This document shows positions 39,341 through 57,794 of a stretch of DNA of 64,000 nt, piece after piece. How positions within the stretch are numbered: position 1 is the first letter of the stretch; every line of letters starts with the position of its first letter. Origin of the DNA: an uncultured Planctomycetaceae bacterium (lineage in GTDB: Bacteria; Planctomycetota; Planctomycetia; Planctomycetales; Planctomycetaceae); NCBI GenBank assembly GCA_963813715.1, contig CAWFAK010000017.1, positions 192,001-256,000 on the forward strand. The letters run 5' to 3'. A model generated the notes under the pieces. That model was not told the origin of the DNA. It saw only the letters and a program-made list of their open reading frames with translations, and ran no database searches. The position numbers and the translations under genes were made by a program.

Positions 39341-39376
39341 GCCCCCAAAGCGACATAAGCCATCGAGTGAACAACC

Positions 39377-40184
39377 GTGAGCGCGACTCCTCAACAAAAG
39401 GACAACCCGGAGGACGAGGTCGCGAGGCAAATTCGCCGCATCACGCGACGCTCCTTCGGCACAGGCGCGGTGGCTGCGACGGCAGGCTTGGCGGGGTGGC
39501 GTTGGCTACGAACGCGCGCCGACGTGGACGGCATTCCGTGGCCGTTGCGGCGGATGCTGGAGTGGAATCAGCGGCTTGCGCAAGCCTACTTCCGGCGGAC
39601 CCGGCTGTCGCCGACCTTTCCCGCCAGCGCTGCCCGCATGCCGCGAGCCAACGGCCACGTCGGTCTTGACGCTCGATTCGATCCGGCACACTGGTCGCTT
39701 CGCCTCGAAAACTCGGTCATCGGGAAGCCGCTGACAGTCACGCTTGATGACATCAAATCGTTGCCGCAGGTCGAGATGGTCACCGAGCTCCGCTGTATCG
39801 AAGGCTGGAGTGATCCCGTGCGTTGGACTGGCGCGCGCCTCGTCGACCTCGTGTCTCGATCCGGGATTGCGACTCGAAGCGGGGCAAAACCCGATCTCGA
39901 GCAAGCTGACGCGGACTTGCTGCCCTATGTGAAGTTGTCGACCCCAGACGAAGCGTATTACGTGGGCCTGGACATTCAGAGCGCGCTGCATCCGCAGACA
40001 TTGCTCTGCTACGAAATGGACGGCGCGCCGCTGACCCCTGGGCACGGCGCATCCGCTGCGGCTTGTGATTCCCGTCAAGTACGGCATTAAGAACATCAAG
40101 CGCATCGGAACAATCCGTTTCACTGACGAGCGTCCTGCCGATTACTGGGCCGAGCGCGGCTACGACTGGTACGCCGGACATTGA
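39377..40184 (+). CDS. Tat-exported sulfite oxidase-family molybdoenzyme (MsrP/YedY-like); frameshift near 40050
   Basis: ITRRSF signal, LRCIEGWS Mo-ligand Cys, LHPQTLLCYEM, HGA/PLRLVIPVKYGIKNIKRI, YWAERGYDWYAGH. Confidence 0.88.
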
Positions 40185-40261
40185 TCTGCGGCCCTTCGTG
40201 AATAACGGGGCCGTGACGCAATTGGCTCGACCCCTGACTAGCTCCAATTAAGGAGAACTCG

Positions 40262-41158: not shown

Positions 41159-41225
41159 ACCTCGGCGGCTAGCGCAATTGCGCGGGCCGTACTGACACAC
41201 ATCTTTTTGAAACAAGGGGCATTAG

Positions 41226-41997
41226 ATGTCGACGTCAGTTGCCGTTGTCACGGGGGCCAGCCAGGGGATTGGTCAAGCGACGGCGATCCGTCTCGCCCGC
41301 GATTTTTCATCGCTGGTCCTGGTCGCGCGGAACCGTGCCAATCTGGAGCAGACGGCCGAAGCAGTGAAGGCGGCCGGCGCCCAAGCGTTGGTGATTGATA
41401 TCGATCTCGCCCAGCCTTCGGCCGCCCGAACGGTGGTCGATCAGACCGTGCAGGCCTTTGGCCGAATCGACGCGCTGCTCAATATCTCCGGTGCGGTCCC
41501 ACAGATCGATCTGTTCGAGATGACGGACGAGCAATGGGAGGCGGGCCTGGCGCTCAAGTTGCACGGCGCCCGGCGACTCACCATCGCCGCCTGGCCCGCG
41601 TTGAAGGAGGCCAACGGCTCGGTCGTGCTGATGTCGGGCAATTCGGCCCTCTTCCCGAAGGCGCCTTACGCGGCGGTCGGTACAATCAACGCGGCGATCA
41701 TCGCGCTGGCTAAAGCCTTTTCCGATCGCGGCATCACCGACGGCGTTCAGGTGAACAGCGTGCTGCCGGGACCCGTGCATGACCGGCCGCCGCCGCTCGT
41801 ATCTCGAGCACTGGGCGCCGCTGCACCAGATGACGGTTGAGGAGGCCACGGCCAAATTTCCGAAGGAGGCCGGCATCGCCCGCTACGGCAAGCCCGAAGA
41901 GATCGCCGAGCTGATGGCCTTTCTGGTGTCGCCGGGCGCCCGCTGGATGACCGGTTCGACGCTCCGGATGGATGGTGGGGAGGTGAAGTCGATCTGA
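41226..41997 (+). CDS. Atypical SDR oxidoreductase; frameshift near 41778
   Basis: VTGASQGIG, VNSVLPGPV / MTGRR, RYGKPEEIA, MDGGE; lacks YxxxK. Confidence 0.85.
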
Positions 41998-42079
41998 CGG
42001 CAGCGGCCGCGTCGGGCCCACACGCGAAGACAACTTCGATTGATAGCCGGTTGCAATTCGTCCCGGTGGAAAGAGTGCG

Positions 42080-42778
42080 GTGATGTCCTCGTCTGACGTG
42101 AGTGTTGTGCTCGTGCATGGCGCTTGGGCGGACGGATCGAGTTGGGCAAAGGTGATCGCGCCACTGGCGGCCGACGGCGTCAAAGTCGTCGCCGCCCCGT
42201 TGCCCCTCACATCGTTTCGAGAGGATGTGGCGGCCCTCGATCGAACGCTGGAGCGCGTGACGGGGCCGATCGTTCTCGCCGGCCACGCCTATGCGGGCGC
42301 CGTCATCGCGGCGACGCGCGGCGAGAAGGTGAAGGCGCTCGTCTACGTCTCAGCCCTGGCTCCGGACGAGGGCGAAACTGTCGCGGATGTTTTCTACCGC
42401 ACTCAGCCGCACCCTCAGGCGCCCCTGTTGGCTCCCGACAAGCACGGGCTGATCTATCTGCCCGAGTCCGCCTTCGCCGCGGCCTTCGCCCAAAATGCGG
42501 TCCCGGCGGAACTGGCCGTGTTGGCAGCGGTTCAGCGACCGCTCTCGCCGGCATGCATCAACGTTGCCGTCGATCGACCGCTCTGGAAAGACCTTCCAAC
42601 CTGGTACCTCGTGGCCGAGCAGGACCGCATGATCGTCCACGAAAATCAGCGGTTCATGGCCGAACGGATGAAGGCTCGGGTGCGCGCGCATCCCGTCGAT
42701 CACACGGCAATCGTAACGGCGCCCTCCGTCGTCGTTGATACCCTCCGAGAGGCGATCGCCGAGGTTGTCGGATGCTGA
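42080..42778 (+). CDS. Alpha/beta hydrolase-fold protein with a non-canonical nucleophile elbow
   Basis: VLVHGAWADGSSW, GHAYAG, QDRMI, VDH. Confidence 0.85.
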   Translation: MMSSSDVSVVLVHGAWADGSSWAKVIAPLAADGVKVVAAPLPLTSFREDVAALDRTLERVTGPIVLAGHAYAGAVIAATRGEKVKALVYVSALAPDEGETVADVFYRTQPHPQAPLLAPDKHGLIYLPESAFAAAFAQNAVPAELAVLAAVQRPLSPACINVAVDRPLWKDLPTWYLVAEQDRMIVHENQRFMAERMKARVRAHPVDHTAIVTAPSVVVDTLREAIAEVVGC

Positions 42779-42833
42779 ACGCGCGCGCCGGCATCTTTCT
42801 CAGCAAACCCCTCCTCGCATAGAGAGCATCAGT

Positions 42834-44282
42834 ATGACCGTCGAAAATTATCAAAACCTCGTGATCGGCAGTGGCGTGGGAGGAAAGCTCATCGCGTGGA
42901 CTCTTGCCAAGAGGGGCCAAAGAACGGTCGTGGTGGAACGATCGATGATTGGCGGCGCGTGTCCTAACGTGGCCTGCCTGCCCAGCAAGAACGTGATTTA
43001 CAGTGCCAAAGCGGTGACACTTGTCGATCCCAAGCGCGGTCTTGGTGTCACGAAAGGGCAACTTCAAGTCGATATGCCCGCGGTGGCTCGCCGCAAGCGA
43101 GAGATGGTCAACCGTCTGGTCGAGATCCACGTTGCCAACTACAAGGAGAGCGGTGCCGAGCTTGTAATGGGAGAAGCGCGTTTCACCGAGTCGAAGACAG
43201 TTGAGGTGACGCTGAATGTCGGAGGAACGCGGATGCTCCGCGGCGAACGCGTGTTTCTCAACCTGGGAACCCACGCCAACGTTCCGGACGTGCCGGGACT
43301 TGCCGCCGCCACGCCGCTGACGCATGTGGAAGCCCTGAACCTCGAGCGATTGCCGGAGCATCTGCTGGTCATTGGCGGTGGTTACGTCGGCCTGGAGTTC
43401 GCCCAGGCGATGCGGCGTTTCGGCAGCCGTATCACGATTATTCACCGAGGAACGCAACTACTAGATCGCGAAGATCCCGAAGTGGCCAGTGCGATGCTCG
43501 AGCTGATGAAGGATGAAGGCATTGAGGTCTTGTTGCAGGCGCAAGTGCTGAATGTCTCCGGCCGATCGGGCAGCGGCGTAACCATGCAGGTTCGATCCGG
43601 AGGGAAGGAAACGTCACTGGAAGGCTCCGACATCCTGGTGGCAGCCGGGCGAACGCCGAACACGGATCGAATCAACGCGCGCACAGCAGGCGTCGAAGTT
43701 GATTCGCACGGTTATATTCGCGTGAACGAGCGGCTGCAGGCCACAGCACCAAACGTCTGGGCCCTCGGCGAGTGCGCCGGAAGTCCGCAATTCACTCATG
43801 TGAGTGAGGATGATTTTCGCGTCGTGCTGAGCGATCTCGACGGCGGCAATCGAACCACCCGAGGTCGCGTGATCCCGTCTTGCTTGTTCACCGACCCCGA
43901 ACTGGCCCATGTTGGCATGAGTGAATCGGAGGCGATGAGCAAGAACGTTCCTTATCGACTGATCAAGCATCCAATGGCGGGCGTGCTTCGGATGTACACA
44001 ATTTCGGAGACGCGAGGATTTGCAAAGGCTCTGATCGGGTCCGATGACCGGATTCTCGGGTTTACAGCATTTGGAGCCGAAGCGAGCGAGATGATGGCGG
44101 TCGTGCAGACTGCGATGCTGGGCGGGCTGCCCTATACGGCGCTTCGCGATGCGATCTTCGCCCACCCAACCGCAGCCGAAGGTTTGGTCGCCATGTTCGG
44201 CAGTCCGCTTCTAGAGCCAGAAAGGACGAAAGGCCAAGGCCCTGCCTCGGCCGCATCCACAACTTCTCGCCGATCAATTTAA
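42834..44282 (+). CDS. Pyridine nucleotide-disulfide oxidoreductase, RclA/YkgC-like
   Basis: IGSGVGG, GGACPNVACLPSK redox disulfide, IGGGYVGLEFA, IFAHPTAAE; no C-terminal Cys-Cys of MerA. Confidence 0.85.
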   Translation: MTVENYQNLVIGSGVGGKLIAWTLAKRGQRTVVVERSMIGGACPNVACLPSKNVIYSAKAVTLVDPKRGLGVTKGQLQVDMPAVARRKREMVNRLVEIHVANYKESGAELVMGEARFTESKTVEVTLNVGGTRMLRGERVFLNLGTHANVPDVPGLAAATPLTHVEALNLERLPEHLLVIGGGYVGLEFAQAMRRFGSRITIIHRGTQLLDREDPEVASAMLELMKDEGIEVLLQAQVLNVSGRSGSGVTMQVRSGGKETSLEGSDILVAAGRTPNTDRINARTAGVEVDSHGYIRVNERLQATAPNVWALGECAGSPQFTHVSEDDFRVVLSDLDGGNRTTRGRVIPSCLFTDPELAHVGMSESEAMSKNVPYRLIKHPMAGVLRMYTISETRGFAKALIGSDDRILGFTAFGAEASEMMAVVQTAMLGGLPYTALRDAIFAHPTAAEGLVAMFGSPLLEPERTKGQGPASAASTTSRRSI

Positions 44283-44538
44283 CCAGCGGAACGCCTCGGG
44301 TGGCTGGACTGTGCTCTAGTCGTGGTATCTCATCCGATTTTCGTGAAGCCCAGAAATGGACCGACCAGTGCTGCCCTGATAGGCACCGGAAACTCATGCA
44401 GCCTTGGGGCACCCCCCCGGAAGAACTTGACCGACGGCGATGGCTTCAATCCGAGACGAACTGTGATATGTTCATACGAGGCTGCGGGTCGCTTGTTCCG
44501 CAGCGATGGCTACACGCCGACGAAGAGGGGACGAGGCC

Positions 44539-45225
44539 ATGATCCGACGAGTTATTGCCATCCGGACCCTAATCATTGCGTTTCTGGTGCTGTTACTCGT
44601 TCCGGCGACAATGGCCTGCGCCGACGAACCCAGTCCAAACCTGACGGATGAGGAATTCGCCGAACTCATCAAATCGCACGATCACTCGCTGAACATGCTG
44701 CTCGGTCTCATCAGCGGCCTCAGCGACGAGCAATGGACCTTCAAGCAAAACGCCAAGCGCTGGTCCGTGGGCGAGTGTACGGAACACATTGTGCGATCCG
44801 AACGCGCTCTCTTCCAAAACGCGATGCAAGCGATGAAGAATCCGCCTGACCCGGACTGGTACGCGCGTACCAAAGGCAAAGCGGATTTCATTCGCAGGGT
44901 CATCCCAAACCGGAACCCGGGTGGCGTCGGCGGCGCGCAGGCACCGCTGGAAATCCAGCCGACGGAGAAATGGGGCCGCGCGAAGGCGATCGAAGAGTTC
45001 TACAAGATCCACGGCGAGGTGCGTGCGTATCTCGAAACCATGCCGCGCGAAATCAAAAACCATACCGTCCGGCATCCCTTCCCAATCTTCAACTGGCTGA
45101 ACGCACACGATTGGCTGCTGTACTTGCCTTTGCACACAGAACGTCACTGCAAGCAGATTATCGAAGTGCAGGCCGATCCAAGATATCCGAAAAAAGCGGC
45201 CTCGGTGGCGGCTGCGGCGAAATAA
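44539..45225 (+). CDS. Secreted DinB/YfiT superfamily protein (thiol S-transferase-like)
   Basis: Signal peptide; GLSDEQWTFK...WSVGECTEHI, HPF, HTERHCKQI metal-binding His triad. Confidence 0.85.
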   Translation: MIRRVIAIRTLIIAFLVLLLVPATMACADEPSPNLTDEEFAELIKSHDHSLNMLLGLISGLSDEQWTFKQNAKRWSVGECTEHIVRSERALFQNAMQAMKNPPDPDWYARTKGKADFIRRVIPNRNPGGVGGAQAPLEIQPTEKWGRAKAIEEFYKIHGEVRAYLETMPREIKNHTVRHPFPIFNWLNAHDWLLYLPLHTERHCKQIIEVQADPRYPKKAASVAAAAK

Positions 45226-45235
45226 TTAGCCTTGC

Positions 45236-45300
45236 TTGACCAACACGGTCAATTGGGGCGACACTGCACGAATCAGTCGGCTGGCGTTGGTTGACAACCA
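45236..45300. promoter_or_regulatory. Two perfect inverted repeats upstream of DUF2911
   Basis: TTGACC-N5-GGTCAA (45236-45252) and TGGTTG-A-CAACCA (45288-45300). Confidence 0.45.
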
Positions 45301-45330
45301 GTTCCTCCCCTAACGCTTTGAGGAGACATC

Positions 45331-45883
45331 ATGAGCATGCTTCGCGTAATCGTCTTGGCGACTGTGGTCGGCTTGTTGAGCACCGTTCCCGCTGACGCGC
45401 AACGAGCCCACGCGCAAGCGAGTCAGCCCTCACGAGACCGTGAGTGCCGTGATCGCAGGCAACGAGGTGAAGATCACCTACGGCCGGCCCTACTCCAAGA
45501 ATCCGCGCGGCACCGACATCCGAAAGATTTGGGGATCGCTGGTGCCCTACGGCAAAGCCTGGCGACTGGGCGCCGACGAGGCGACGACCATCGTGCTGCA
45601 AAAGGGGATCAAGATTGGCGACGCGGCGATTCCTGCCGGGACCTACACGCTGTACCTGATTCCCGAAGAGAATGGCGGCAAGCTGGCTTTCAGCAAGACC
45701 GTGGGTAAATGGGGGGTTCCCGTCGACCAGAAGAATGATCTGGTCCGTGTCGACGTCAAGAAAGAGCCGCTCTCGCCAGCGCTTGATCAATTGGCGATCG
45801 CCGTCCAGAAGGGCGACAATGGCGGCGTGCTGAAGTTCATGTGGGAAGACTCGCAGTACACTGTGAACTTCACCAACGAATAG
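45331..45883 (+). CDS. DUF2911 family secreted protein; frameshift near 45410
   Basis: Signal peptide; RVSPHETV, ITYGRPY, LVPYGKAWRLGADEAT, IPAGTYTLYLIP, MWE. Confidence 0.88.
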
Positions 45884-45944
45884 CGCGCCGATCTTGATCC
45901 GCCCAACCCCACCGACTCGTCGCAAGCAATCTGACAGTGCGCCT

Positions 45945-48473
45945 ATGCAATCCAGCTCTTCGACGACCGTCGGCATTCGCGCACGACTCCGGATTGCCGC
46001 TTGGACCGCCGTCGCGCTGATGCTTGTCGCGCTCGGCGCAGTCCAAGGCGGAATCGCCGCCCGCAAGCGCGGGAGCCGCGATCCTGGAAAAACTGCGTGC
46101 CTTTCAAGAGATGGGGAGCGTGCTGCACGTCGCCGCCCATCCCGACGATGAGAATACGCAGTTAATCACGTACTTGGCGCGGGGGCGGCGAGTCCGCACG
46201 GCCTATCTGTCGATTACGCGAGGCGACGGCGGGCAGAATGTGCTCGGCGGCGAATTCGGCCCGCAACTGGGGCTGATCCGTACGCACGAGCTTCTGGCCG
46301 CGCGGCGATTGGACGGGGGGAGACAGTTTTTTACGCGTGCGATCGACTTCGGTTTCTCAAAGGACCCCGAAGAGACGCTCAAGATCTGGGACGAGCAGGC
46401 GGTTCTGTCGGACGTCGTCCGCGTGATTCGCACATTCCGGCCCGATGTGATTGTGACTCGGTTCAGTCCGCAGGCCTCGCGCACGCATGGGCATCACACG
46501 GCCTCAGCGATTTTGGCCGTGGAGGCGTTCAAGCTCTCGGGCGACCGGACGGCGTTTCCCGATCAGCTCAAAGAACTGGAGCCTTGGCAGCCCAAGCGAA
46601 TACTGATGAACCGCGGCCTTGGTGGCGGTCGCGGCGGCGGAGAGGGCGCCGTGCAGCTCGACGTCGGCGGCACCGACGTGTTGCTGGGCGAGAGCTTCTC
46701 GACGATCGCATCGCGCAGTCGTGCGATGCACAAGAGCCAAGGGTTTGGCAATTTTGGAAGCGGCGGGCGCGGCGGCGGCAGCCGGCCGCGGACGGAGTCG
46801 TTTCAGCTCCTGGCCGGCGAACCGGCCAAAAAGGACATCTTCGACGGGATCGACGTGCAATGGACCCGCGTGCGCGGCGGTGCAGAGATCGGGAAACTGG
46901 TCAGCGAGGTGATCGCCAAGTTCAATCCGGCGCGATCCGGGCGCAAGCGTTCCCGATTTGTTGATTCTGCGCCGCAAGTTGACAGCTCTTGCGGACGAGC
47001 CGCTCGTTCGCGAAAAGCGTCGCGACTTCGACCAGATTCTACAGGCCTGCCTGGGCCTGGTCGTGGAGTCAACCTTGAGCACGGCCGAGGTCTCGCCTGG
47101 CGACTCCGTGACGATCGAGCATTCTGTCGTCCGCAAAGGCAAAGTGCCCGTCACTTGGCGGGGTGTTCGCTACCCGACTTTAAACAAGGAGCTGAAGCGG
47201 ACCGATCCGTTGACGTTAGACCAGGTCGTGAAGGTCACCGACCAGCAAACTTTGCCCGACGACATATCCGGTGAGCCAGCCCTATTGGCTTCGCGAGGTC
47301 CCAGGCGTCGGCGTGTATCGCGTGGCCGAGCCGAGCTTGATTGGCCAGCCCCTGGGGCCGCCTCCGCTTCTCGTGGAGCATGAATTTGAGGTCCAGGGGC
47401 AGACGTTCGTGGTGCCGATCGTGCCCACCGCCCGGGTGATCGAAAACGGAAAGCAGATCGAGCGTTCCCTCGAAGTGGTCCCGCCGGTGTTCCTCGGCTT
47501 CCCGTTCGAGGTAGCCCGTTTTGCACCGGGACAGAAGCGAAACGTGCAGGTCACCGTGTCCAGCAGTCGCCCCGGGGTTACCGGCGAGCTCACGTTGTCG
47601 GCACCAGCGGACTGGAAGGTGGCTCCCCGCTCGCAGAAGTTTCAGATCGACACGGGTTCCCAAGCCAGGTACACGTTCGAAGTGACGCCTCCGGCGCACG
47701 CCGCCTCGGCGTCGATCGTCGCCCAGGCCACGGTCGGCGGCCGCACCTACGACAACGGGCGCGTCGACATCCGTTATGATCACATCGGTCACCTCTTGTT
47801 GCAGCCGACCGCGCGGCTGACTGCCGCGTCTTTCGATCTGAACATTCGAGGGCGGAATGTCGGTTACGTCGAAGGCGCCGGCGATAGCGTCGCCGAATGT
47901 CTCGCGCAGATGGGTTACACGGTCAAGCCGCTCTCAGCCACGGATCTAACAAAAGAAGGTCTGCGCGGTCTGGATGCAGTCGTAATCGGCGTTCGCGCGT
48001 TCAACGTGCGCAAAGATCTGGGCAAGCACATGCCGGCCTTATTTGCGTTCGCCGAGGCGGGCGGAAATCTGATCGTGCAATACAACCGGCCCGAGGGCCT
48101 CAAGAGCGATCGATTCGCTCCGTACGACTTGGGTCTCTCGAGTCAGCGGGTGACCGACGAGCAGTCGCCGGTGACGTTTCTGGCTCCAGATCATCCGGCG
48201 CTCAACACGCCCAACAAAATCACGCGGGCCGATTTCGATGGGTGGGTGCAGGAGCGCGGGATCTATTTTCCGAATGAGTGGGATCAACACTTCAAGCCGA
48301 TCCTCGCGTTAAAAGACCCGAACGAACCGCCGCTCGAAGGCGGGATTCTGATCGCGGCACACGGCCGCGGCAACGTGATTTACACCAGCCTGGCCTGGTT
48401 TCGAGAGCTGCCGGCGGGTGTTCCCGGCGCTTACCGATTGTTTGCGAACCTTGTCTCGTTGGGCAAGGGCTGA
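45945..48473 (+). CDS. Large secreted PIG-L/LmbE family deacetylase with Ig-like (NEW3) and GATase-like C-terminal domains; frameshifts near 46025, 46935 and 47270
   Basis: AAHPDDEN, TRGDGGQN, DFGFSK, HGHH, SRAMHKSQGFG, GWVQERGIYF, FRELPAGVPGAYRLFANLVS. Confidence 0.88.
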
Positions 48474-48498
48474 AAATCCTCCAGCGCGGACGGGCGCC

Positions 48499-48654
48499 AT
48501 GGCCGAACGGACTGCCGACTCGTCGGACTCCGCAGAGAACGAAGCGACCCGGCTGCCTGTCTTCCGCACCTGGCCCGCGGTTTATGCCTTCGTCGTGGCC
48601 ACGTTCGTCCTCTGGGTCACGCTCCTCGCAGTCTTGGCGAGGACGTTCTCGTGA
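48499..48654 (+). CDS. Small single-TM protein preceding the SSS transporter
   Basis: LPVFRTWPAVYAFVV...LLAVLARTFS; stop overlaps the SSS start (GTGA). Confidence 0.75.
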   Translation: MAERTADSSDSAENEATRLPVFRTWPAVYAFVVATFVLWVTLLAVLARTFS

Positions 48655-50368
48655 ACGGAATCGATTGGGCTGTCCTGCTCATCACGATTCTGGGCATTGC
48701 TGGCTACGGGATCTGGGGCACACGCGGCCAGCGCAGTCTTCGAACTTTTTTGCACGGCTCAGGCGAAACGAGCTGGATGGTGATTGGCCTCTCGGTGATG
48801 GCCACGCAGGCCAGCGCCATCACGTTTCTCTCCACTCCCGGGCAAGGATATGAGAGTGGACTGGGGTTCGTGCAGAACTACTTTGGAGCCCCGTTCGCGT
48901 TGATCATCATCTCTGTCGTGTTTTTGCCGATCTATCGCCGTCTGAATGTCGACACCGCGTATGAATTCCTGGGGAGCCGCTTTGATTCCAAGACGCGCCT
49001 GCTCGGGGCGGCCTTGTTTCTTCTGCAGCGCGGGCTGGGCGCCGGGATCACAATCTACGCTCCGGCCATCGTGCTCTCGACGGTCATGGGTTGGCGTCTG
49101 GACCTGACGATCATCGGCAGCGGATTGGTGGCGATCGCCTACACCGTTTCCGGGGGCAGCGCCGCGGTTAACCTGACGCAAAAGTACCAGATCGGCGTCA
49201 TCTTCATCGGCATGATCACGGCCTTTTTTGTTTTGGTGTCGAAGCTGCCCGGCGACGTTGGCTTCTCCGGTGCGCTGACCGTGGCCGGAGGTTTGAATAA
49301 GCTGGAAGGCGTCGACTTCTCGTTCGATGTCGGCAAGCGCTACACGTTCTGGTCTGGCCTGCTCGGTGGACTGTTTCTCGCTCTGTCGTACTTTGGCACG
49401 GACCAGTCGCAAGTGCAGCGTTATCTGTCGGGCGGATCACTGCGCGAAAGCCGCCTGGGCTTGATGTTCAACGCGGTCTGCAAGATTCCTATGCAGTTCT
49501 TCATCCTGCTGCTGGGGGTGATGCTGTTTGTTTTCTATCAGTTCGAGCCGCCGCCAATTTTTTTCAATCAAACGGCCTGGAACAACGCGATTGCGACTAA
49601 GTCGGGCGGCCAATTGCAATCACTGGCCCGGCAATACGAGTCCGAATGCGCTTCCACCAAGACCGCAATCACCCGCTGGCTGGCGCTGGGCCACAGCAGT
49701 AATCCCGCGGAGGCTGATGCTGCGCGAACCAACGCGCAAGCGGCTTACCAGCAGAGCCAAGCGACCCGAGCCGAGGCCAAACGCGCCCTGACAGCCGCCA
49801 CCCGCGCGCGTCTTCCAACGATGCCGACTACGTCTTCGTGACGTTTATTCTGCATCACTTGCCGCACGGCCTGATCGGCCTGCTGATTACCGTATTCTTG
49901 GCCGCGACGCTCTCGTCAAAGGCTGCCGAGCTGAATGCCCTGGGGTCGACGACAACCGTCGACCTGTATCGGCACATCATGACTCGCCAGGCCACGGAGG
50001 CGCACTACCTGAAGGCATCGCGATTTTTCACGGCCATGTGGGGGTTGATTGCGATTTGCTTTGCCCTGTTTGCAAACATGGCGGAAAACCTGATCCAGGC
50101 CGTGAACATCGTGGGCTCGATTTTCTACGGCGTGGTGCTGGGGATGTTTCTGGTCGCGTTCTTGATGCGATGGATTGGCGGGACAGCCGTCTTTTATGCG
50201 GCAATCGTGTCGCAGGTGGCGGTGCTCGTGCTCTACTTCACGATCCCCATCAGCTACCTTTGGTACAACGTGATTGGCTGTGCGATTTGTGTCGTTTTGA
50301 GCGCGTGCGTGCAGATTGGCCTCGGCCCGATTGATCGCGAGCCAACCCGCGGGGTTAACCCAACATGA
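48651..50368 (+). CDS. Sodium:solute symporter; frameshift near 49800
   Basis: LSVMATQASAITFLSTPGQGY, TAYEFLGSRFD, YFGTDQSQVQRYL, LPHGLIGLLI. Confidence 0.92.
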
Positions 50369-51142
50369 GCGGGGAGCCCCTCATTTGCTTCGGCCAGCAA
50401 CCGTGCGGGTTCTTCCCACGCCGTTACCTCGTGGCGAAGATTCGGACCGCCCGGCGTTTGCAGGCGGAAATCGGGGGCAGAATTGTGTTTTTTTGTCACG
50501 ACTCCGATCACGATCCGCGCGAAACCAAGACCATCGTGCGCCACCGTCGCCTTGGCGAGCCGCTGCCCTTGAATTTCGCCTTCGCCAATAAGTGGCAGCG
50601 CAAATTCTCGCCGCTCTACGCCAAGCGAGTTCTGCCCGAGTGGCAAGCCAAAACGGCCATGACGCTGCATCCCTACGTGGAACCCTCTTTAGTCCAAGCG
50701 TTCGAGGAAACGCACGCCACGAACGTCGCCGATTTCTGCCTCGAGATGTACAAGCGGATGGGATTCTTGGAGGGAATGGACGATTGCGCGATCCAGCGAT
50801 CCGGCCTTCCGGGAAGCGGCCTGCGAAATCGACGACTACTATGTCGACGTGCCCTACGAGGGCGAAATTGTCCGCGCGCGTTACGTCAAAGGCGAACTGA
50901 TGCTCCACAAAGGGGGCGATGTCTATGAGACGTGCCCTCGTGTCCCTTTTGGCAAAAAGCAGATCAGCCCGGCGCGCGACACCCGCTTGAAATGGATGCA
51001 GTCGGTCGTGCAGTGCACGCACTATGTCGCGGGAGCAAGCGAACAGGACTATCTGCGTGTCGCGGACGCGCCCGAGGTAAACTTTGTACGCCGAGAGACG
51101 ATCGAGCGAGCAGATGAAGCCTATACCGACCTCCAACTCTGA
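50365..51142 (+). CDS. bshC: Half-size BshC-like bacillithiol cysteine-adding enzyme (~259 aa); frameshift near 50785
   Basis: GQQP, K, DSDHD, ISP...R...MQ and YVAGASEQDY match BshC TGQQ, EDHD, SPNVxxRPxxQ and YVGGPGExxY; adjacent to bshB1 and bshA. Confidence 0.7.
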
Positions 51143-51850
51143 ACCGGGACCGCTCTTGGTCTTCGGTGCCCATCCGGACGATATCGAGTTCGGCTGCGGT
51201 GCCATCGTGGCCTTGGAGACCCGCGCTGGCCGCCGCGTTCACTTGGTCGTCTGTTCGAAAGGCGAAGCCGGCACGTATGGCAGCGCCGAACAGCGAGTGG
51301 CCGAAGCCCAGGCCGCGGCCAAAGTGTTGGGCGCGTCGCTCGAGTTCGTCGAGTTCGATGGCGACGCACATCTCGAGCTTCGCGCGGCTCACGCCATCAC
51401 GCTGGCCCGACGTGTGCGGGAGCACAAGCCCGACATCGTGTTGGCGCCGACAGTCGTCCAGAATCAGCACCCGGATCACTGGCGGCTGGGGACGCTGGTT
51501 CGCGATGCCGTGAGGTTGGCTCGCTACGGCGGCCTGGAAGAGCTGCGTGCGCTCGCGCCGCATCGAATCGAGCAATTGTTTTTCTACGCGCTCGGTGCCG
51601 AAGCCGAACCCCGCGATGCGATGCCAATCTTGGTCGATGTCTCGCCCCCGGAGGTCATCGCGACATGGACCGCCGCCATGCAGGCCCACGCCTCTCAGGT
51701 TCGAGGCGCGAGTACGTCGAGCTCCAATTGAGCCGAGCGCATTATCACGGGCTCCGAGCGGGTGTGAGCCACGCGATCCCGCTATTCCCAAACGATCCAA
51801 TCCTTTTGGATTCGTTGGCCGCAGTCGAGCGCGCCGCTCGTGTCTTTTGA
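51114..51850 (+). CDS. bshB1: Bacillithiol biosynthesis deacetylase BshB1 (PIG-L family); frameshift near 51705
   Basis: FGAHPDDIEFGCG, GEAGTYGSAEQRVAEAQAAAKVLG, HPDH, HASQ. Confidence 0.85.
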
Positions 51851-51869
51851 TCAAGCAGAGCCAGCACAG

Positions 51870-53023
51870 ATGACACACCCGCGGCCGTTGAAAGTAGGCA
51901 TCGTCTGCTATCCGACTGTGGGCGGAAGCGGAATCTTGGCCGCAGCGCTCGGTGAAGAACTGGCCGCGCGCGGGCACGAAGTGCACTTCATTAGCTCAGA
52001 ACGGCCATTTCGATTTCCCGACCAGTCCGCACGTGTCCATTTCCATCCGGTTTCGGTCAATAAATACGAACTGTTTCGGTATCCCGACTACACGTTACCT
52101 CTGTCGGTGAAGATGGCCGAGGTTAGCCGAGACTACAGACTCGACGTGCTACACGCCCACTATGCCGTACCGCATGCCACGTCCGCGATTCTTGCTCGTT
52201 CAATGCTTCCACAGAATCTTCAGCCGCGTGTCGTGACCACTTTGCACGGCACGGACACTACGCTTTTGGGCGCGACGCGAACTACGGCCCGGCAATTCGA
52301 CACGCGCTCGACTGCTCGGACGCTGTTACGGCCGTTTCAGAGTTTCTCAAGCGGGAAACGCACCGACTGTTGGACGTGAGTCGCGAAGTCGAGGTGATCC
52401 ACAATTTCTATAAGCCTCGCCAACCAAGGCAATCTCGCGAGGCGGTCCGCAACGAATTAGGAATCGCGAATGGCCAGGCACTGTTGCTGCACAGTTCGAA
52501 CTTGCGAAGTCTTAAACGCGTCGACCTGTTACTTGCCGCTGTCGCCGCGATCCGCCCGCGCGAGTCGTTCAAGCTGATGATCTTGGCCGGCGAGGATTTT
52601 TCGCCCTTCACGAGCGAAGTACTGCGCCTGGGGCTGCAAGACCAGGTGATCGTGTTAGACAGAGTCAAGGACATCGAGGAATACCTCCAGGCCGCCGATC
52701 TGAATCTGGTCACATCGGAAAGCGAGAGTTTTTGTCTCAGTATTCTTGAGGCCATGTGTTTCGGGTGTCCGAGTGTGGCCATGCGCGTTGGCGGCATTCC
52801 TGAAGTCATCGACGACAATCGATCCGGCCAACTTGTCCCCTTTGGCGAAGTGGCGGAATTCGCCACAACGGTCGAGGCACTTATTCGCGACACGCAACGG
52901 CGATTGGAGTTCGGCCAAGCTGGCAAGGCGATCGCCCAGGAGCGATTCTCAGCAGAAAGGATCGTGCCGAAATACGAATCGCTCTATTACCGCATCTGTC
53001 CCGTGACGAAGAACAACGCATGA
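51870..53023 (+). CDS. bshA: N-acetyl-alpha-D-glucosaminyl L-malate synthase BshA (GT4); frameshift near 52275
   Basis: GIVCYPTVGGSG, GHEVHFIS, LHAHYAVPHA, TTLHGTD, HSSNLRSLKRV, ESFCLSILEAM. Confidence 0.93.
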
Positions 53024-53029
53024 CCTCCG

Positions 53030-53300
53030 AGCAGGCAAATGTCATTGCTTCGTCGCTTTGCGAGCAGGCCAAGGATGTATGTCGCGCGGGCCGACGATGA
53101 GGTCCGCACGCTTATCCACAAGTGTTGACACGCCTCATCGGAAAAATGGCGCCGAATTTGGCTGACGTCGCTGGATGTTCGGCCGCGGACCGGGCCTGGG
53201 CCATCACGGCACTGGCTGTCGGCGGGCTGCTGTTTTCGCGCAGCCAATGACGAGGAGATCTCCGATCGCATCCTCGCCGTAGTCGCCCCAGTTCAAGAAC
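53030..53300 (+). pseudogene. Degenerate C-terminal half of a TetR family regulator
   Basis: Across frames: DV..RADDEVRT / YPQVLTRLIGKM...RAWAITALAVGGLLFSR / AANDEEISDRILAV; no HTH. Confidence 0.45.
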
Positions 53301-53458
53301 GAGGGACCTGGGCCGAACGCAGACTGAGAGACGAGCTTGTGGGGCTCGTCCTAGCGTTCGTCGCTGCTGCGTCCTCGCAGCCGCGACGTACGCGCTAGCT
53401 CCCATGTAACTCTGGAAGCCAAGCCGCCGAGTAAACCTGGCCGTCTAAGTGCGTCAAG

Positions 53459-53488
53459 TCCCCGCCGGTGTCCCCACCACGGCGGGGA
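53459..53488. terminator. Stem-loop between convergent transcription units
   Basis: TCCCCGCCG...CGGCGGGGA 9-bp stem with an inner GGTG/CACC pair. Confidence 0.5.
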
Positions 53489-53530
53489 TTATTCACAACG
53501 TCCGGTCGGGTGAAGGTGGCCTTCGCGTTT

Positions 53531-54885
53531 TCAATTCCTTAGCGACGCAATCAAATCGTGCGCGGCTTGGATTCCGCTTTCGATCGCTCCATGGACGGAG
53601 GCGACGTTGCCTGGCTTGTCTTTGACGCCAACGGCTTCGCCGGCGAAGAACAAGGTGTCGGCCACCGGCTTGCCGAGAGCTTCCCTGGCATCCGGGAACG
53701 TGTCGTCCGGGAGTGCAGAGTAGCCGCTGCGGCTGTAAGGATCGTCGTGCCACACGCGCCACTCGGCGCGCACGAAGAGATCACGGATCCGCTCGTTCCG
53801 GAACATGTGGACGAGTTGATTGATGATCGCTTGTGGCGGGTCGGGGTGGTGTCCGAAACGATCGGCCGCATCGCCACCCACAAGGTGTGTGAGCAGGTGC
53901 CGTCGCCCGCGGCGTCGCCAGAGAGAAGTCGGCCAGTGCAATTGTGAGTCGAGGGCGCTCGCCAGAAATGCCATCCCCTCGGGCCAGAACGACTTGCCGC
54001 GGTGCAGGGGCGAAAGCTCGTGACCATTTTGAACGCTTTGCCCGCACGCAACGCGTCGATCGCCTCAGCCTTCGACGAGGGGAGCGGATCGTCGAAGATC
54101 ACATCGCCTTGCTGGAGCACTCCTAGTGGCAACGTCACGAGGACCGCACGGGATTGGAGCTTCAGGTTGCGGGCGAACACGCTGGCGCTGCCGGGTTCCC
54201 ATTCAATTCGGTGAACGGGCCGGTTGAGACGGATGTCGAGGCTTGCCTCCTCCGAGGCGCGGTGAAGCAGGGCCGAGTAGCCTTGGTCCACGTGGAAGTT
54301 TGCTTCAAAACCGGTGACATCGGGTTCAAGCCAGCCTTCGAGTGTGAGTACCGTCGGTTCGACGGAATGATCGTTCTTGATGAGCTGCTCGATGTATCGG
54401 CGCGTGACGGCCGAACGAGCCAGAATCTCGGCGCCCTCAGGTGTGCCGAGAAACACGGGAAGGGGTGCGGCTCCCCCACCCGCGCGTCGGAAACGCTCCG
54501 CCAATCGGCGCAGTTCATGCAGCAACAGTTGTGGCGGCCGAGGCAATTCGGAGTCTGGGACAAGCTGGCCGTCAAACCAGGAGTAAGTCTCGCCCACGTG
54601 GGGAACCAAAGTCAGGCCGTATTCGACGCTGAGCTGATGAACGATGTTGCTTTCGCCGTGAACAAATTCAGCCCCGAGCTCGATGGGGTGACGGGCGAGG
54701 GAGCGCCGGGTGAAAATGCGGCCTCCGATACGATTGCGAGCCTCCACGCAGATCGCCGTAAGTCCGCAGCGTAGCAGCTCGCGCATGGCGAACACGCCGG
54801 CGGCTCCTGCGCCGATGACGATGACATCGGCACGAACCGGCAGTGCGCGTTGACGAGGTCGATCAGGCGTTGAAGATTGCTTCAT
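53531..54885 (-). CDS. Flavin monoamine oxidase family protein; frameshift near 54005
   Basis: VIGAGAAG, EARNRIGGRI, ELGAEFVHG, VTLPLGVL, WHDDPYSRSGYS, FFAGEA, VHGAIESG. Confidence 0.9.
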
Positions 54886-55202
54886 AACGAAACGGCTAAC
54901 GGTTTAATTCCATCAAGGAAGGACCACCATTTGCCATTGGCTTGTCGACTACCGCATACGGCCGCCCTAACGGCCAAGCTTGCTCGTGACCTGGCGAATT
55001 GCAACCCGGTTACCGGGCGAATTGGGCTGCGCTCAACAGGCAGCGCGAGTCCCCTTTGCCGGATCGGATTGGAGTCTGTCCAATGGTGCGTCTTCTCCGG
55101 AGACAAAACGGCAGCATCAGAAGTCCAGACTGAAGCCCCGCCTTTCATATCCCCCAACAGCGCCGTGAACACAGCGATCGCTCAGCGAGCCTGGCGGCTC
55201 TC

Positions 55203-55520
55203 ATGTTGGGAGCTTTGAGGGTTGTATTCGGCGATATCGGCACGAGTCCCTTATACACGTTGAAGGAGTTTGATCGCTGCTGGAGGTGCCAAAGCAACCG
55301 TCGCCGATTTGTACGGCATCGTATCGCTCATGCTGCGGGCGCTCGTGATGCCGGTGACCGTCAAGTATCCTGCTTCGTGATGCGCGCCGACCACATGGCG
55401 AGGGGGGGGCATTTTCGCCTTGCTGGCCATCGTGCCCGAGCGGTTCCGCGCGCATAACACGCGCAAAGGGCGGATCACGGCAATGGCCATGCTGGCGGTC
55501 GTCGGAGCCTCGCTGCTGTC
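55203..55520 (+). pseudogene. kup: Kup (KT/HAK/KUP) potassium transporter 5' remnant
   Basis: LGALRVVFGDIGTSPLYTLKE, then broken frames giving GIVSLM...VTVKY and FVMRAD...IFALLA; only ~100 codons remain. Confidence 0.8.
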
Positions 55521-55796
55521 GCGCCAGCCAGCTCGAATTGCCCAACGTCTGTTTCATGGGCACGAACATCGTCAGCGGCACGGCCGCTCGCCGCGGCACG
55601 CAACACTGATCGGTGCGCAGAGAGCAGGTCGACCGACTCTGCAGCGGGCGGTATAAAGGAACCCGTCAATCCGGGAGTCGGCAACACAACCACGGGCGAG
55701 CCAAATCCCGATTGGGACGGACTCCACGCACCATCTTCTCCCTGGCGAACGCGAACCTCCGGTCTTAATGGCCCTTTCTTGGTCGAGACGGAATTC

Positions 55797-57794
55797 TCAA
55801 TAAGCAACGTTCGGAAGTTCCGAGTCGGTCGAAGTCGATGTCGACGCGGCCTGGATCCGGGACCTCCTTTTGGAACGCACTGCTCCGACGACCAACGCCC
55901 CGATGAGACAGACATTTACGGTTGTCAAGATTACTGCACCGAGTGTTTCCGCTGAAAACCGGCCCACGAGCGGGGCCCACCACGGAGTCCGGTGAACTAA
56001 CCCTTCGGCCGCTGGAGCAATCTCGAAAAAGCCGGTCATCATCTCGTCGAATGTTTGCCCTCCCCACCCAACCGTGGCCTTTGGGTCTGGGTTATTGAGG
56101 TTGGCCCCGGAATTATCGTAGTGTGCTACGCAGTTGATGACGGTCCCGCGCGGCATAATCTTTGGCTCTCGGAGGCGATAAGTTGTTTGCCAGCCGAAGT
56201 CGTAGTGAGGCACTGACAACAACATTTCCCGATGGCCATCAGGGTAGGTGGCTTCGTAACAAAAATCCTTGCCGCGCAGGTGCATGTGAGGGAGCATTGA
56301 CAGCAGCAGTGAGTCACGCTGGAAAATATACTCAGAACGTACTTCTTGGTTGAAAACGCCAGGTGGAATTTGAAAGGCTTTGTTAAATGCGCACGAGACG
56401 GTCACCTCGCGGTCGACTGACCGCGGATCGGCGAACTTAATGCCCAGGTAGCTGCGGTCCTGCTGTGGCGAGCCGTTGGGGGTGTAGTGGACATTAAAGA
56501 GGAGCTTTGAACCCGCTGGGAAACGACGGGCGAATCCGGAAGACAACTGATCCGGCACCAAACCGGGAGCGAAGCCTGCGAAGTAGCTTTCGTCCTCACG
56601 CAATGGGTCGAATGAGTTTGCGTCCGCCGGCAGCGAGTAGACTAGAATGTGATGTACGACCGACCGGTTGCCCGGTCGCAGCTCAATGGCCGAAATCCAA
56701 CGATCCTCTTTCCAACCGGGGTCGACGACAAAGACTTTATAGGGAACTACGCCGTTCGCCGGAACGTTGAACGGCTCAGGTGACATATAAATGATTTGAT
56801 CCGGCTGGGGAATCATCCACTTGTCAGCAAAAGTTGGCGGTTCCGGCAAAGCCTTCGGATCTCCCTGCGGCGCCCCGGCGGTCGCCCATTCTGCGAGAAT
56901 GAGTTTTTCCTTGTCGCTGAGGCGCGAGTCGTTAAGGAATGATCCGTAATTGGGATCGGCATGCCAGGGCGGCATGCGGTTCAATTCGGTCACCTCGGCG
57001 ATCATGTCGGCCCATCCAGCGACTTCTTCATACGATGTCAAAGCGAAAGGGGCGATTTGCTGCGGTCGGTGGCAGGTTACGCATCGCTTATTGAGGATTG
57101 GCGCGACGTCTTTCGCATAGGTGAAAGACAGGTGCGCCGCCGGTTCGCGATCCCGACCGATCAGGCATCCGGCCGCCTGAGTTTCGGTGACGGAAACTGG
57201 CTTGCCGGCCAGCAACTCGTCGATCGCACATTGAAGGTCCCTCCGCTCCGGCTTGGGTTTGTGATAGCCGGCCGTCCGATTAGTTGGCATGAACCCAAAC
57301 TGGTCGTCAATGCGTCCCCGGTAGCGGATTCTGCGCTCGCGGTCTAGGACGACTATCTGCGGGGTCCTCGTCGCCCCAAGTCGGTTGGCAATTGTCTGCC
57401 GCAGGTCTTTGAGAATCTGGAATGTGATTTCATGCCGCCGTGCAAAAGCGCCGATTTCAGTTACCGAATCTTGTCGATTCGAGTCCACGGCAATGAAGAC
57501 GACACCGCTCGATTTGTATTTTCCGGCGAGTTCGACAAGTCGCGGCGAATACAACTTCGCAAGGGGGCAGTCGACACCCAGAAAAGCAAACACGATCAAC
57601 TTGTCGCGGCCGACCTGAGTCAACGAAAAAGTCGCCCCCAAGATGTCCTTGGCGGCCAGGTCTTTGACGACGTCGCCGATCGCTGCCTTGCCCGGTACTC
57701 CACCCTCCACCGACTGAACGGAGGTGAACACTAACCATCCGGCGATTAACACAAGAGATTGCCGGCGCACAACCAACTCCGACTCTGGTAGCAA
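55797..57794 (-). CDS. Planctomycete redoxin + cytochrome c + copper type II monooxygenase-like fusion with a C-terminal TM helix
   Basis: FLGVDCPLAK, YRGRIDDQ, CVTCH heme motif, MPPW, VVHH, PHMHLRG, DEMM. Confidence 0.85.
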   Translation of the reverse strand: MLPESELVVRRQSLVLIAGWLVFTSVQSVEGGVPGKAAIGDVVKDLAAKDILGATFSLTQVGRDKLIVFAFLGVDCPLAKLYSPRLVELAGKYKSSGVVFIAVDSNRQDSVTEIGAFARRHEITFQILKDLRQTIANRLGATRTPQIVVLDRERRIRYRGRIDDQFGFMPTNRTAGYHKPKPERRDLQCAIDELLAGKPVSVTETQAAGCLIGRDREPAAHLSFTYAKDVAPILNKRCVTCHRPQQIAPFALTSYEEVAGWADMIAEVTELNRMPPWHADPNYGSFLNDSRLSDKEKLILAEWATAGAPQGDPKALPEPPTFADKWMIPQPDQIIYMSPEPFNVPANGVVPYKVFVVDPGWKEDRWISAIELRPGNRSVVHHILVYSLPADANSFDPLREDESYFAGFAPGLVPDQLSSGFARRFPAGSKLLFNVHYTPNGSPQQDRSYLGIKFADPRSVDREVTVSCAFNKAFQIPPGVFNQEVRSEYIFQRDSLLLSMLPHMHLRGKDFCYEATYPDGHREMLLSVPHYDFGWQTTYRLREPKIMPRGTVINCVAHYDNSGANLNNPDPKATVGWGGQTFDEMMTGFFEIAPAAEGLVHRTPWWAPLVGRFSAETLGAVILTTVNVCLIGALVVGAVRSKRRSRIQAASTSTSTDSELPNVAY

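What the first reader, a model, noticed from the sequence alone, without database searches (positions are those of the whole stretch)
44539..53023. Bacillithiol genes in one unit with a secreted DinB, DUF2911, a large secreted PIG-L amidase and an SSS transporter: possible extracytoplasmic BSH conjugation and salvage system
Seen: eight co-oriented genes. The last five (small TM, SSS, bshC, bshB1, bshA) overlap or nearly abut, and DinB, DUF2911 and the large PIG-L protein carry signal peptides. Established: BshA/B/C make bacillithiol; DinB/YfiT proteins include bacillithiol S-transferases; PIG-L proteins include thiol S-conjugate amidases (Mca, BshB2/Bca). The characterised examples are cytoplasmic. 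Inference: exported BSH is conjugated by the secreted DinB, the conjugate is cleaved outside the cytoplasm by the large PIG-L enzyme, and GlcN-malate (or BSH) is re-imported by the SSS transporter. That would give a function to the otherwise orphan PIG-L/small-TM/SSS/DUF2911 module, which I recall from Bacteroidota genomes but have not verified here.
Basis: partly seen in the sequence, partly recalled or inferred. Interest (0 to 1): 0.87.

Follow-up and report, generated by a model that had tools for sequence, protein, structure and literature searches.

The report
Bacillithiol operon with exported deacetylase
This soil bacterium carries genes for making the antioxidant bacillithiol, including a half-size version of the enzyme for the last step, packed together with an exported enzyme and an importer that probably free and reclaim the molecule's sugar-malate core outside the cytoplasm, and that in some relatives seem to stand in for a missing step of the synthesis.

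Summary
The eight genes are real; eight single-base frameshifts are assembly errors. DUF2911, large exported PIG-L, small membrane protein and SSS are tied to bsh genes: 69 of 72 PIG-L genomes hold bshA, in three gene orders; in Acidobacteriota 77 of 82 versus 23 of 69. Two corrections. (1) 'bshC' is a 258-residue protein with no Pfam or NCBIfam hit that folds as the BshC core (Z 19.7, 240 residues) and keeps its motifs without the coiled coil. (2) The secreted DinB is a genus-level add-on. New here: the cytoplasmic deacetylase bshB1 was not found in 11 of 24 Chthoniobacterales genomes with this operon; in three, one a single contig, the exported PIG-L is the only PIG-L found, while 10 of 10 module-less bshA genomes keep bshB1. 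Best reading: a periplasmic N-acyl-glucosaminyl-malate amidohydrolase plus GlcN-malate importer that recovers the bacillithiol core and can replace BshB. Substrates are inferred, not shown. The scan reported this operon and the short BshC before on other DNA (three notes).

The parts
44539..45225 (+). Exported DinB/STL-family protein, 228 aa, with the three-histidine metal site; genus-level add-on at the head of the cassette
   Evidence: PF12867 E 1.3e-16; EH and HxxRH motifs in 116 and 117 of 120 relatives, hydrophobic N-terminus in 115 of 120; found beside the module only in 5 same-genus loci
45331..45883 (+). Exported DUF2911 protein, about 184 aa (assembly indel at 45407); role unknown, conserved part of the module
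   Evidence: PF11138 E 7.9e-37; in 42 of 72 PIG-L loci and 19 of 21 short-BshC loci with enough upstream DNA
45945..48473 (+). Large exported PIG-L/LmbE amidohydrolase, about 840 aa (assembly indels at 46031, 46933, 47270): signal peptide, LmbE domain with HPDD and HGHH, helical part, two Ig-like domains, C-terminal ThuA/class I amidotransferase-like domain
   Evidence: PF02585, PF10633; motifs invariant in 21 aligned relatives; model pLDDT 71.7; MshB Z 14.8, ThuA-like 1t0b Z 10.8 on residues 639-846
48499..48654 (+). 51-aa single-pass membrane protein, probable small subunit of the symporter
   Evidence: A small hydrophobic frame lies between PIG-L and SSS in 54 of 55 loci by the rule used (one of the 54, L042, looks like another frame); no family hit
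48651..50368 (+). Sodium:solute symporter, 572 aa (assembly indel at 49800), with a roughly 90-residue insertion that solved relatives lack
   Evidence: PF00474, TIGR00813; closest solved: SMCT1, SMVT, NIS, 5nv9; within 700 bases after the PIG-L in 55 of 65 loci with room
50365..51142 (+). Short BshC, 258 aa (assembly indel at 50780): Rossmann core of the bacillithiol cysteine-adding enzyme without N-terminal extension and coiled coil
   Evidence: Model pLDDT 95.1; best match 4WBD BshC, Foldseek E 1.7e-9, Z 19.7, rmsd 2.7, 240 of 258 aligned; motifs kept; no Pfam/NCBIfam hit
51114..51850 (+). BshB1-type cytoplasmic deacetylase, about 245 aa (assembly indel at 51705); the dispensable gene of the operon
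   Evidence: TIGR04001 136 bits, cut-off 182.5; HPDD and HPDH motifs; absent from 12 of 24 Chthoniobacterales operons
51870..53023 (+). BshA, GlcNAc-malate synthase, 384 aa (assembly indel at 52267)
   Evidence: TIGR03999 409 bits over cut-off 273.7 for the intact relative; E 2e-92 to solved BshA 5D00

Best explanation
A self-contained bacillithiol cassette, gained as a unit by one planctomycete genus. BshA makes GlcNAc-malate, BshB1 removes the acetyl group, and the short BshC adds cysteine in the cytoplasm (family assignment shown; product inferred). The exported PIG-L is a periplasmic zinc amidohydrolase for N-acyl-glucosaminyl-malates: it cuts the amide of whatever form reaches the periplasm (GlcNAc-malate, bacillithiol, its disulfide or S-conjugates, the cell's own or from neighbours) and leaves GlcN-malate, which the symporter with its small subunit brings in for BshC (inferred). 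Because it also takes the acetyl form, it can supply GlcN-malate where bshB1 has been lost (inferred from gene loss). DUF2911 is an accessory periplasmic protein. The secreted DinB is a late addition in this genus and may conjugate periplasmic thiol there (weakest step).
For: Linkage in three gene orders: PIG-L-SSS-short bshC-(bshB1)-bshA in 24 of 72 loci; PIG-L-full bshC-bshB1-bshA-SSS in L038, and bshC-bshA divergent from PIG-L-SSS in L064 with bshA also beside it in L082, L085. bshA in 69 of 72 PIG-L genomes (25 in the locus, 44 of 47 elsewhere). Verrucomicrobiota sample: PIG-L 10 of 201, bshA 11 of 201, all 10 shared. Acidobacteriota: 77 of 82 PIG-L genomes have bshA, 5 of 51 bshA-less genomes have the PIG-L. 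Relatives: the same 7 of 41 genomes hold PIG-L and bshA. All characterised LmbE hydrolases named in the review act on an N-acyl-glucosamine core, and Mca and the single S. aureus BshB serve both as deacetylase and amidase (PMC4101496, PMC5790435 passages). SSS nearest to carboxylate and sugar-acid carriers. bshB1 not found in 11 of 24 short-BshC Chthoniobacterales genomes and in G756, with positive controls G710 and G725; in G669 (single contig, 4,517,628 bases), G707 and G656 the exported PIG-L is the only PF02585 match; their bshA keeps its motifs and scores 398.6 bits in G669 and their PIG-L keeps its signal. Same in genomes with the module beside bshA or bshC of the full type: no BshB1 over cut-off in 5 of 5. 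Control: 10 of 10 module-less bshA genomes keep BshB1 (9 over cut-off, 1 split). Loss from the operon needs 7 changes on the tree, at least 4 forced by well-supported branches.
Against: No substrate, metabolite or transport was measured. No exporter for bacillithiol or GlcNAc-malate lies in the cassette, and export of bacillithiol is not established (PMC5790435 passage). In Bacteroidota bshA is near universal (192 of 201), so co-occurrence there is weak (78 of 78; p 0.013 before kinship), and 114 of 192 bshA genomes lack the PIG-L. Five Acidobacteriota have the PIG-L without bshA, two with the SSS beside it. The PIG-L scores only 46.8 bits on Mca (cut-off 277) and carries Ig-like and NEW3 domains common in sugar enzymes. 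10 of 65 loci with room lack the adjacent SSS, and divergent paralogues stand alone. Most module genomes keep bshB1 (13 of 24; 4 of 5 Acidobacteriota). A non-PIG-L cytoplasmic deacetylase was not searched for; most bshB1-less genomes are incomplete assemblies; G747 shows neither bshB1 nor the large PIG-L domain. The control genomes are of another phylum, and the five were picked partly for lacking bshB1 in the locus. No YpdA over cut-off and no BrxA/B in 5 of 5 short-BshC genomes.
Confidence: 0.58

Rival explanations
1. One reading: a periplasmic mercapturate-type route in which exported bacillithiol is conjugated by the secreted DinB, the conjugate is cut by the PIG-L, and GlcN-malate is re-imported; DinB is an integral part.
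For: DinB has a signal-like N-terminus and the three histidines of bacillithiol transferases, is single-copy in the genome and heads the cassette in 5 of 5 same-genus loci that reach far enough. Best NCBIfam match of the PIG-L is Mca, though far under cut-off.
Against: No such DinB beside the module outside the genus; DinB_2 found in 1 of 5 Verrucomicrobiota module genomes, far from the module. A conjugate-only amidase does not explain intact bshA in bshB1-less genomes. STL proteins also use other thiols (PMC5815605 passages).
Confidence: 0.12
2. The symporter imports intact bacillithiol or its disulfide (scavenging of a shared soil thiol); the PIG-L only trims conjugates or is accessory, and bshB1-less genomes rely on uptake.
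For: The module sits in a minority of bacillithiol-gene genomes (56 full-length of 201 Bacteroidota), as an optional uptake system would; glutathione uptake systems are a precedent (PMC4360819 passage).
Against: bshB1-less genomes keep both bshA and the short bshC intact, which pure uptake of the finished thiol would not need; the PIG-L is the most constant partner of the SSS.
Confidence: 0.12
3. The module acts on an unrelated N-acetyl-hexosamine (for example a cell-wall or chitin fragment) and is only co-located with bsh genes; bshB1-less genomes use a non-homologous cytoplasmic deacetylase.
For: Ig-like, NEW3 and ThuA-like domains occur in glycoside enzymes; diacetylchitobiose deacetylase matches the LmbE domain about as well as MshB (Z 14.0 versus 14.8); five bshA-less genomes have the PIG-L; unlinked in Bacteroidota.
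Against: Three separate gene orders with bsh genes, joint gain and loss within one genus, 77 of 82 versus 5 of 51 in Acidobacteriota, and no recurring sugar-catabolism genes among the families shared by the 72 loci.
Confidence: 0.1
4. The short-BshC cassette makes a bacillithiol variant (another acyl group or aglycone), and the module handles that variant.
For: Short BshC is only about 15% identical to BshC; bshB1 is under cut-off and bshA scores about 400 bits against 530-580 in Bacteroidota; YpdA and BrxA/B not found in 5 of 5 genomes.
Against: BshA motifs match solved BshA; the residues invariant in 14 full BshC are kept in the short family; the same module goes with full-size BshC elsewhere.
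Confidence: 0.08

Closest known systems
Bacillithiol pathway BshA / BshB1 / BshC (Bacillus subtilis; Chlorobiaceae; Bacteroidota)
   Same: BshA over curated cut-off; BshB1-type deacetylase; BshC fold and motifs.
   Different: BshC is 258 aa instead of about 540, without coiled coil; bshB1 is often absent; an exported hydrolase, symporter and DUF2911 share the operon; no YpdA or BrxA/B found in 5 genomes.
BshC of B. subtilis (PDB 4WBD; TIGR03998, PF10079)
   Same: 240 of 258 residues align, Z 19.7, rmsd 2.7; GQQ, K, DHDxxE, SP-R-Q and YxxGxxExxY kept in at least 85% of 116 aligned members each (S201 is the lowest, 99 of 116).
   Different: Lacks the first 80 residues and the coiled coil said to be required for dimerisation (PMC4360819 passage); no HMM hit; profile-profile match is weak (probability 58.9, 52 columns).
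Mca, BshB2/Bca and MshB (LmbE-like deacetylases and S-conjugate amidases)
   Same: HxDD + H zinc motif, LmbE fold; precedent for one enzyme doing both deacetylation and amide cleavage.
   Different: About 840 aa, exported, with four extra domains; far below all curated cut-offs; third-ligand motif reads HGHH rather than HPDH.
SLC5/SSS anion carriers SMCT1, SMVT, NIS and the bacterial symporter 5nv9 (recalled as the sialic acid carrier SiaT)
   Same: Nearest solved relatives, E 2e-39 to 3e-34, ahead of glucose/galactose carriers.
   Different: Has a small partner protein and a 90-residue insertion; substrate untested.
Glutathione export, periplasmic gamma-glutamyl transpeptidase and re-uptake in E. 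coli (export: PMC5790435 passage; the rest recalled)
   Same: Works like it: thiol broken in the periplasm, part re-imported.
   Different: No shared protein family; different thiol; no exporter identified here.
DinB/YfiT (STL) bacillithiol S-transferases BstA-H
   Same: DinB_2 fold family, three histidines.
   Different: Signal peptide; activity and thiol untested; not a general part of the module.

Membership tests
BshA | TIGR03999 over curated cut-off | tested here: met
   409.4 bits versus 273.7 for the intact same-genus copy; window copy split by an assembly indel
BshA | Makes GlcNAc-malate | not testable with these tools
   Motifs match solved BshA; papers naming the malate-binding residues were not held
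BshB1 | TIGR04001 over curated cut-off | tested here: not met
   136.4 bits versus 182.5; still the best family, and HxDD + H is present
BshC | Rossmann core matching 4WBD | tested here: met
   Z 19.7, rmsd 2.7, 240 aligned; next row Z 14.2; Foldseek E 1.7e-9; Atlas features 0.91 to PF10079 clusters
BshC | Residues invariant in full-size BshC | tested here: met
   17 positions matched by motif and spacing between 116 short and 14 full sequences; matching was by eye, not from a printed superposition
BshC | About 540 aa with coiled-coil domain; TIGR03998 / PF10079 hit | tested here: not met
   258 aa, no long helices in the model; no hit. Filed as a BshC-like core, not as TIGR03998
BshC | Adds cysteine to GlcN-malate | not testable with these tools
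   Not reconstituted even for BshC as of the reviews read
LmbE/PIG-L metallohydrolases | HxD1D2 + H zinc motif in an LmbE fold | tested here: met
   H65, D67, D68 and H181, H183, H184 invariant in 21 sequences; fold Z 14.8 to MshB
Mca / Bca S-conjugate amidases | Curated family score | tested here: not met
   Mca 46.8 bits versus 277
Mca / Bca S-conjugate amidases | Cleaves thiol S-conjugates | not testable with these tools
   Needs an assay
SSS (SLC5) symporters | PF00474 / TIGR00813 over cut-off | tested here: met
   200.1 bits versus 184
DinB/STL thiol transferases | DinB_2 domain with three histidines | tested here: met
DinB/STL thiol transferases | Uses bacillithiol | not testable with these tools
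   Needs an assay
Sec-exported proteins (DinB, DUF2911, PIG-L) | N-terminal signal peptide | tested here: met
   Hydrophobic-stretch rule with cytoplasmic controls; SignalP not available

The most novel reading that the evidence does not exclude
Bacillithiol synthesis that runs through the periplasm: GlcNAc-malate made by BshA leaves the cytoplasm, is deacetylated by the exported PIG-L, and returns as GlcN-malate through the symporter to a monomeric half-size BshC. In bshB1-less soil Verrucomicrobiota this would be the only route, and the same loop would let them harvest the bacillithiol core released by neighbours, making it a shared soil resource.
Probability: 0.3. Interest if true: 0.88.

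Novelty: new variant of a known kind. Interest (0 to 1): 0.76.

Why it matters
It touches three stated gaps. Whether bacillithiol is imported or exported is called unresolved, and the BshC reaction undetermined, in a 2018 review (PMC5790435); this cassette names a candidate importer and periplasmic hydrolase, and gives a natural 258-residue BshC core that shows which parts are dispensable and should be easier to assay. Verrucomicrobia and Planctomycetes were listed as having no documented or predicted low-molecular-weight thiol (PMC6282198), and a 2025 survey lists no Verrucomicrobiota in the stored part of its dataset; the short BshC escapes such searches and is present in 24 of 121 Chthoniobacterales genomes and over 6,000 protein clusters. 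The repeated loss of bshB1 makes a sharp, testable prediction for the exported enzyme.

Tried and rejected
Pseudogene reading of the frameshifts: rejected. DinB as core member: rejected. Sequence search of solved structures with the short-BshC profile found nothing meaningful (1 match, E 1); hhalign caught only the first motif; the fold search settled it. Bacteroidota profiling as a test: nearly uninformative because bshA (192 of 201) and bshC (193 of 201) are almost universal there. Idea that bshB1-less operons carry a PIG-L without signal peptide: rejected, they keep it. Atlas search for DUF2911 outside its own family: one hit at 0.77, a lead at best. Promoter and terminator scan: 1 promoter-like site against 1.9 expected, 15 terminator-like against 9.4 +/- 3.0; nothing usable. 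RNA-library contigs cover the stretch but contigs do not show transcription. Literature: nine searches gave no paper describing this module or a short BshC; the library lacks most subscription papers, and the BshC and BshA structure papers were not held. PMC12817932 and PMC9586298 (passages) were irrelevant. Donor of the planctomycete cassette not resolved: the short-BshC tree has an open backbone.
Full report
What is in the window. The window is G000:C17:192001-256000 of a 7.49 Mb, 82.6% complete genome; a 92% identical locus is titled Planctomycetaceae (L020). Eight genes lie on the + strand from 44539 to 53023: DinB, DUF2911, large PIG-L, a 51-aa membrane protein, an SSS symporter, a bshC-like gene, bshB1 and bshA. 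Six are broken by single-base indels. Contigs of four public runs show the restoring base at all eight places, each in 2 to 4 of 4 runs, and same-genus genomes give intact frames, so I treat the breaks as assembly errors and used intact relatives as queries. The cassette is in 7 of 12 same-genus genomes (G000 included) and in 0 of 29 genomes of other genera searched, and the same 7 hold bshA (one further weak PIG-L hit, G001, E 4e-4, was not counted): it comes and goes as a unit.

Export signals. No SignalP was at hand. A hydrophobic-stretch rule passes 67 of 69 PIG-L and 47 of 47 DUF2911 N-termini, against 0 of 24 short BshC, 2 of 22 bshB1 and 1 of 25 bshA, and 115 of 120 DinB relatives. In these two-membrane bacteria that most simply means periplasm (inference).

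The 'bshC' is a half-size family. It is 258 aa and hits nothing in Pfam or NCBIfam. A search returned 6,187 relatives among proteins of 102 to 328 aa, the best mostly 254-258 aa; the few named ones are mostly Verrucomicrobia. The model (pLDDT 95.1) matches B. subtilis BshC best: Foldseek E 1.7e-9; Z 19.7, rmsd 2.7, 240 of 258 residues on BshC 81-517, next row Z 14.2. Seventeen positions of full BshC, matched by motif and spacing, are kept in the short family. It lacks the coiled coil that a review says is required for dimerisation (PMC4360819, passages). No full bshC was found in 5 of 5 short-BshC genomes. Against: the profile-profile match is weak (probability 58.9) and identity is 15%.

The module is tied to bacillithiol genes. 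Of 72 PIG-L loci from named genomes (best 80 of 656 stretches), 24 read PIG-L, SSS, short bshC, and 21 of those reach bshA (three end at contig edges). Two other orders use full BshC: L038 (Aminicenantes) PIG-L, bshC, bshB1, bshA, SSS; and L064 with bshC-bshA divergent from PIG-L-SSS, bshA lying likewise in L082 and L085. Of 47 genomes without bshA in the fetched locus, 44 have it elsewhere over cut-off: 69 of 72 in all. In 80 metagenome loci of the short BshC, the SSS is upstream in 56 of 58 with enough DNA, PIG-L in 35 of 37, DUF2911 in 19 of 21, bshA downstream in 43 of 45. Profiles on fixed samples: Verrucomicrobiota PIG-L 10 and bshA 11 of 201, all 10 shared, 9 of them other than the seed genome and mostly in one operon, so not independent of linkage. 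Acidobacteriota PIG-L 82 and bshA 100 of 151, both 77, PIG-L alone 5, bshA alone 23, neither 46; without the two unpublished genomes G538 and G513, 75, 5, 23, 46. Bacteroidota PIG-L 78 of 201 (56 full-length), bshA 192, bshC 193; none of the 9 bshA-less genomes has the PIG-L, weak support given the background. Kin are not independent, so p values overstate. Counter-examples: five Acidobacteriota with the PIG-L and no bshA on a second look, two with the SSS adjacent; they are 31-33% identical to the query. Divergent Bacteroidota paralogues stand without SSS (7 of 7 fetched).

DinB is local. It has the three histidines of bacillithiol transferases (PMC5815605, passages). A profile of 120 relatives finds it only in 5 same-genus loci among all loci fetched, and once in the genome.

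bshB1 is the dispensable gene. It follows the short bshC in only 12 of 64 metagenome loci with 400 bases downstream (these loci are rich in near relatives). In a Chthoniobacterales sample the short bshC is in 24 of 121 genomes; 12 have bshB1 in the operon and 12 do not. Of those 12, G725 has it elsewhere; in 11, and in G756, no orthologue was found by family search or by protein query, with G710 and G725 as positive controls (G739 gave one partial 31% match). In G669 (one contig of 4,517,628 bases), G707 and G656 the only PIG-L domain found is the exported one; the others have one to three unrelated small PIG-L proteins, and G747 shows no large PIG-L domain, possibly a contig break. Their bshA keeps all motifs (398.6 bits in G669) and their PIG-L keeps its signal. 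On a tree of 61 short BshC sequences the label needs 7 changes, at least 4 forced by well-supported branches. Five more module genomes of other lineages have no BshB1 over cut-off, and in two (G070, G757) the only match is the large PIG-L; these were picked partly for lacking bshB1 in the locus. Control: 10 of 10 module-less bshA Acidobacteriota keep BshB1 (9 over cut-off, one split; 10 of 23 such genomes were tested), as do 4 of 5 module-bearing ones. I did not search for deacetylases of other families.

How it most likely works. Shown: gene content, folds, motifs, linkage, loss pattern. From known biochemistry: LmbE hydrolases cut the amide of an N-acyl-glucosamine (PMC4101496, passages), and Mca and S. 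aureus BshB act both as deacetylase and conjugate amidase (PMC5790435, passages). The PIG-L has the zinc motif and an LmbE domain followed by helical, two Ig-like and a ThuA/class I amidotransferase-like domain (model pLDDT 71.7, low at 718-804). The SSS is nearest to monocarboxylate, vitamin, iodide and sugar-acid carriers. Inferred: the PIG-L frees GlcN-malate in the periplasm from acetyl, cysteinyl or conjugate forms, the SSS imports it, and BshC reloads it. The price is an unidentified exit route for GlcNAc-malate. I put this at 0.58; the strict form, synthesis obliged to pass through the periplasm, at 0.3. Rivals: the full DinB scheme 0.12, uptake of intact thiol 0.12, unrelated sugar substrate 0.10, variant thiol 0.08. 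YpdA and BrxA/B were not found in 5 of 5 short-BshC genomes, which leaves open how the thiol is kept reduced.

Novelty. Nine literature searches found no description of the module or of a short BshC; the library misses most subscription papers and the two structure papers were not held. PMC6282198 (passages; supplements searched without a hit for these phyla) states that Verrucomicrobia and Planctomycetes have no documented or predicted thiol. PMC12719100 (passages; supplements searched, file cut when stored) lists two Planctomycetota with the usual pathway and no Verrucomicrobiota. This scan noted the operon three times before on other DNA, once with the short BshC; I had reached both points before that call, and those notes are not counted as support. 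A search of the scan's notes for the bshB1 loss showed nothing. Verdict: real, a new variant of a known pathway with an undescribed envelope branch; interest 0.76.

Noticed in passing
L120:3402-11070 (metagenome contig Ga0180433_10006834): A divergent short BshC lies tail to tail with a BshB1-like gene (155 bits, cut-off 182.5) between gatA and gatB and near a geranylgeranyl reductase, an archaeal-looking setting without the module. PMC12719100 found no archaea with the full pathway; bshA was not seen in this contig.
   Followed up: partly
L100:4799-9021 (G160): Small (1.95 Mb contig) genome of the Verrucomicrobiota sample with methyltransferase, full bshC, bshB1, bshA in a row and no module: possible N-methyl-bacillithiol cluster; the methyltransferase was not tested as NmbA.
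   Followed up: partly
L098, L099 (G270): The operon is split: DUF2911-SSS-short bshC-bshB1-bshA at one place, the large PIG-L with a second DUF2911 nearby 2.5 Mb away.
   Followed up: partly
L015, L016 (G002:C1): Two near-identical inverted copies of the cassette at the two ends of a 93 kb contig, with an insertion element in the upstream oxidoreductase; duplication or assembly artefact.
   Followed up: no
window 38225-44282: Upstream + strand run: a small protein with GSDKM repeats (38225-38521), cytochrome b and molybdopterin oxidoreductase-like pair (recalled as MsrPQ-like), two alpha/beta hydrolases, an SDR and an RclA/MerA-like flavin disulfide oxidoreductase (353 bits on RclA, cut-off 740). 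Redox-stress flavour, but only G002 shares the oxidoreductase beside the cassette.
   Followed up: partly
window 40000-56000: Single-base frameshifts also break genes outside the cassette (SDR near 41800, amine oxidase near 53950), so split genes in this genome should not be read as pseudogenes without reads.
   Followed up: no
SSS residues about 300-395 (window about 49550-49830): A roughly 90-residue insertion absent from solved SLC5 relatives; a candidate docking site for the PIG-L or DUF2911.
   Followed up: no
L200-L205: Large PIG-L paralogues in bshA-less Acidobacteriota, two with an adjacent SSS: candidates for scavengers of bacillithiol made by others, or for another substrate.
   Followed up: partly
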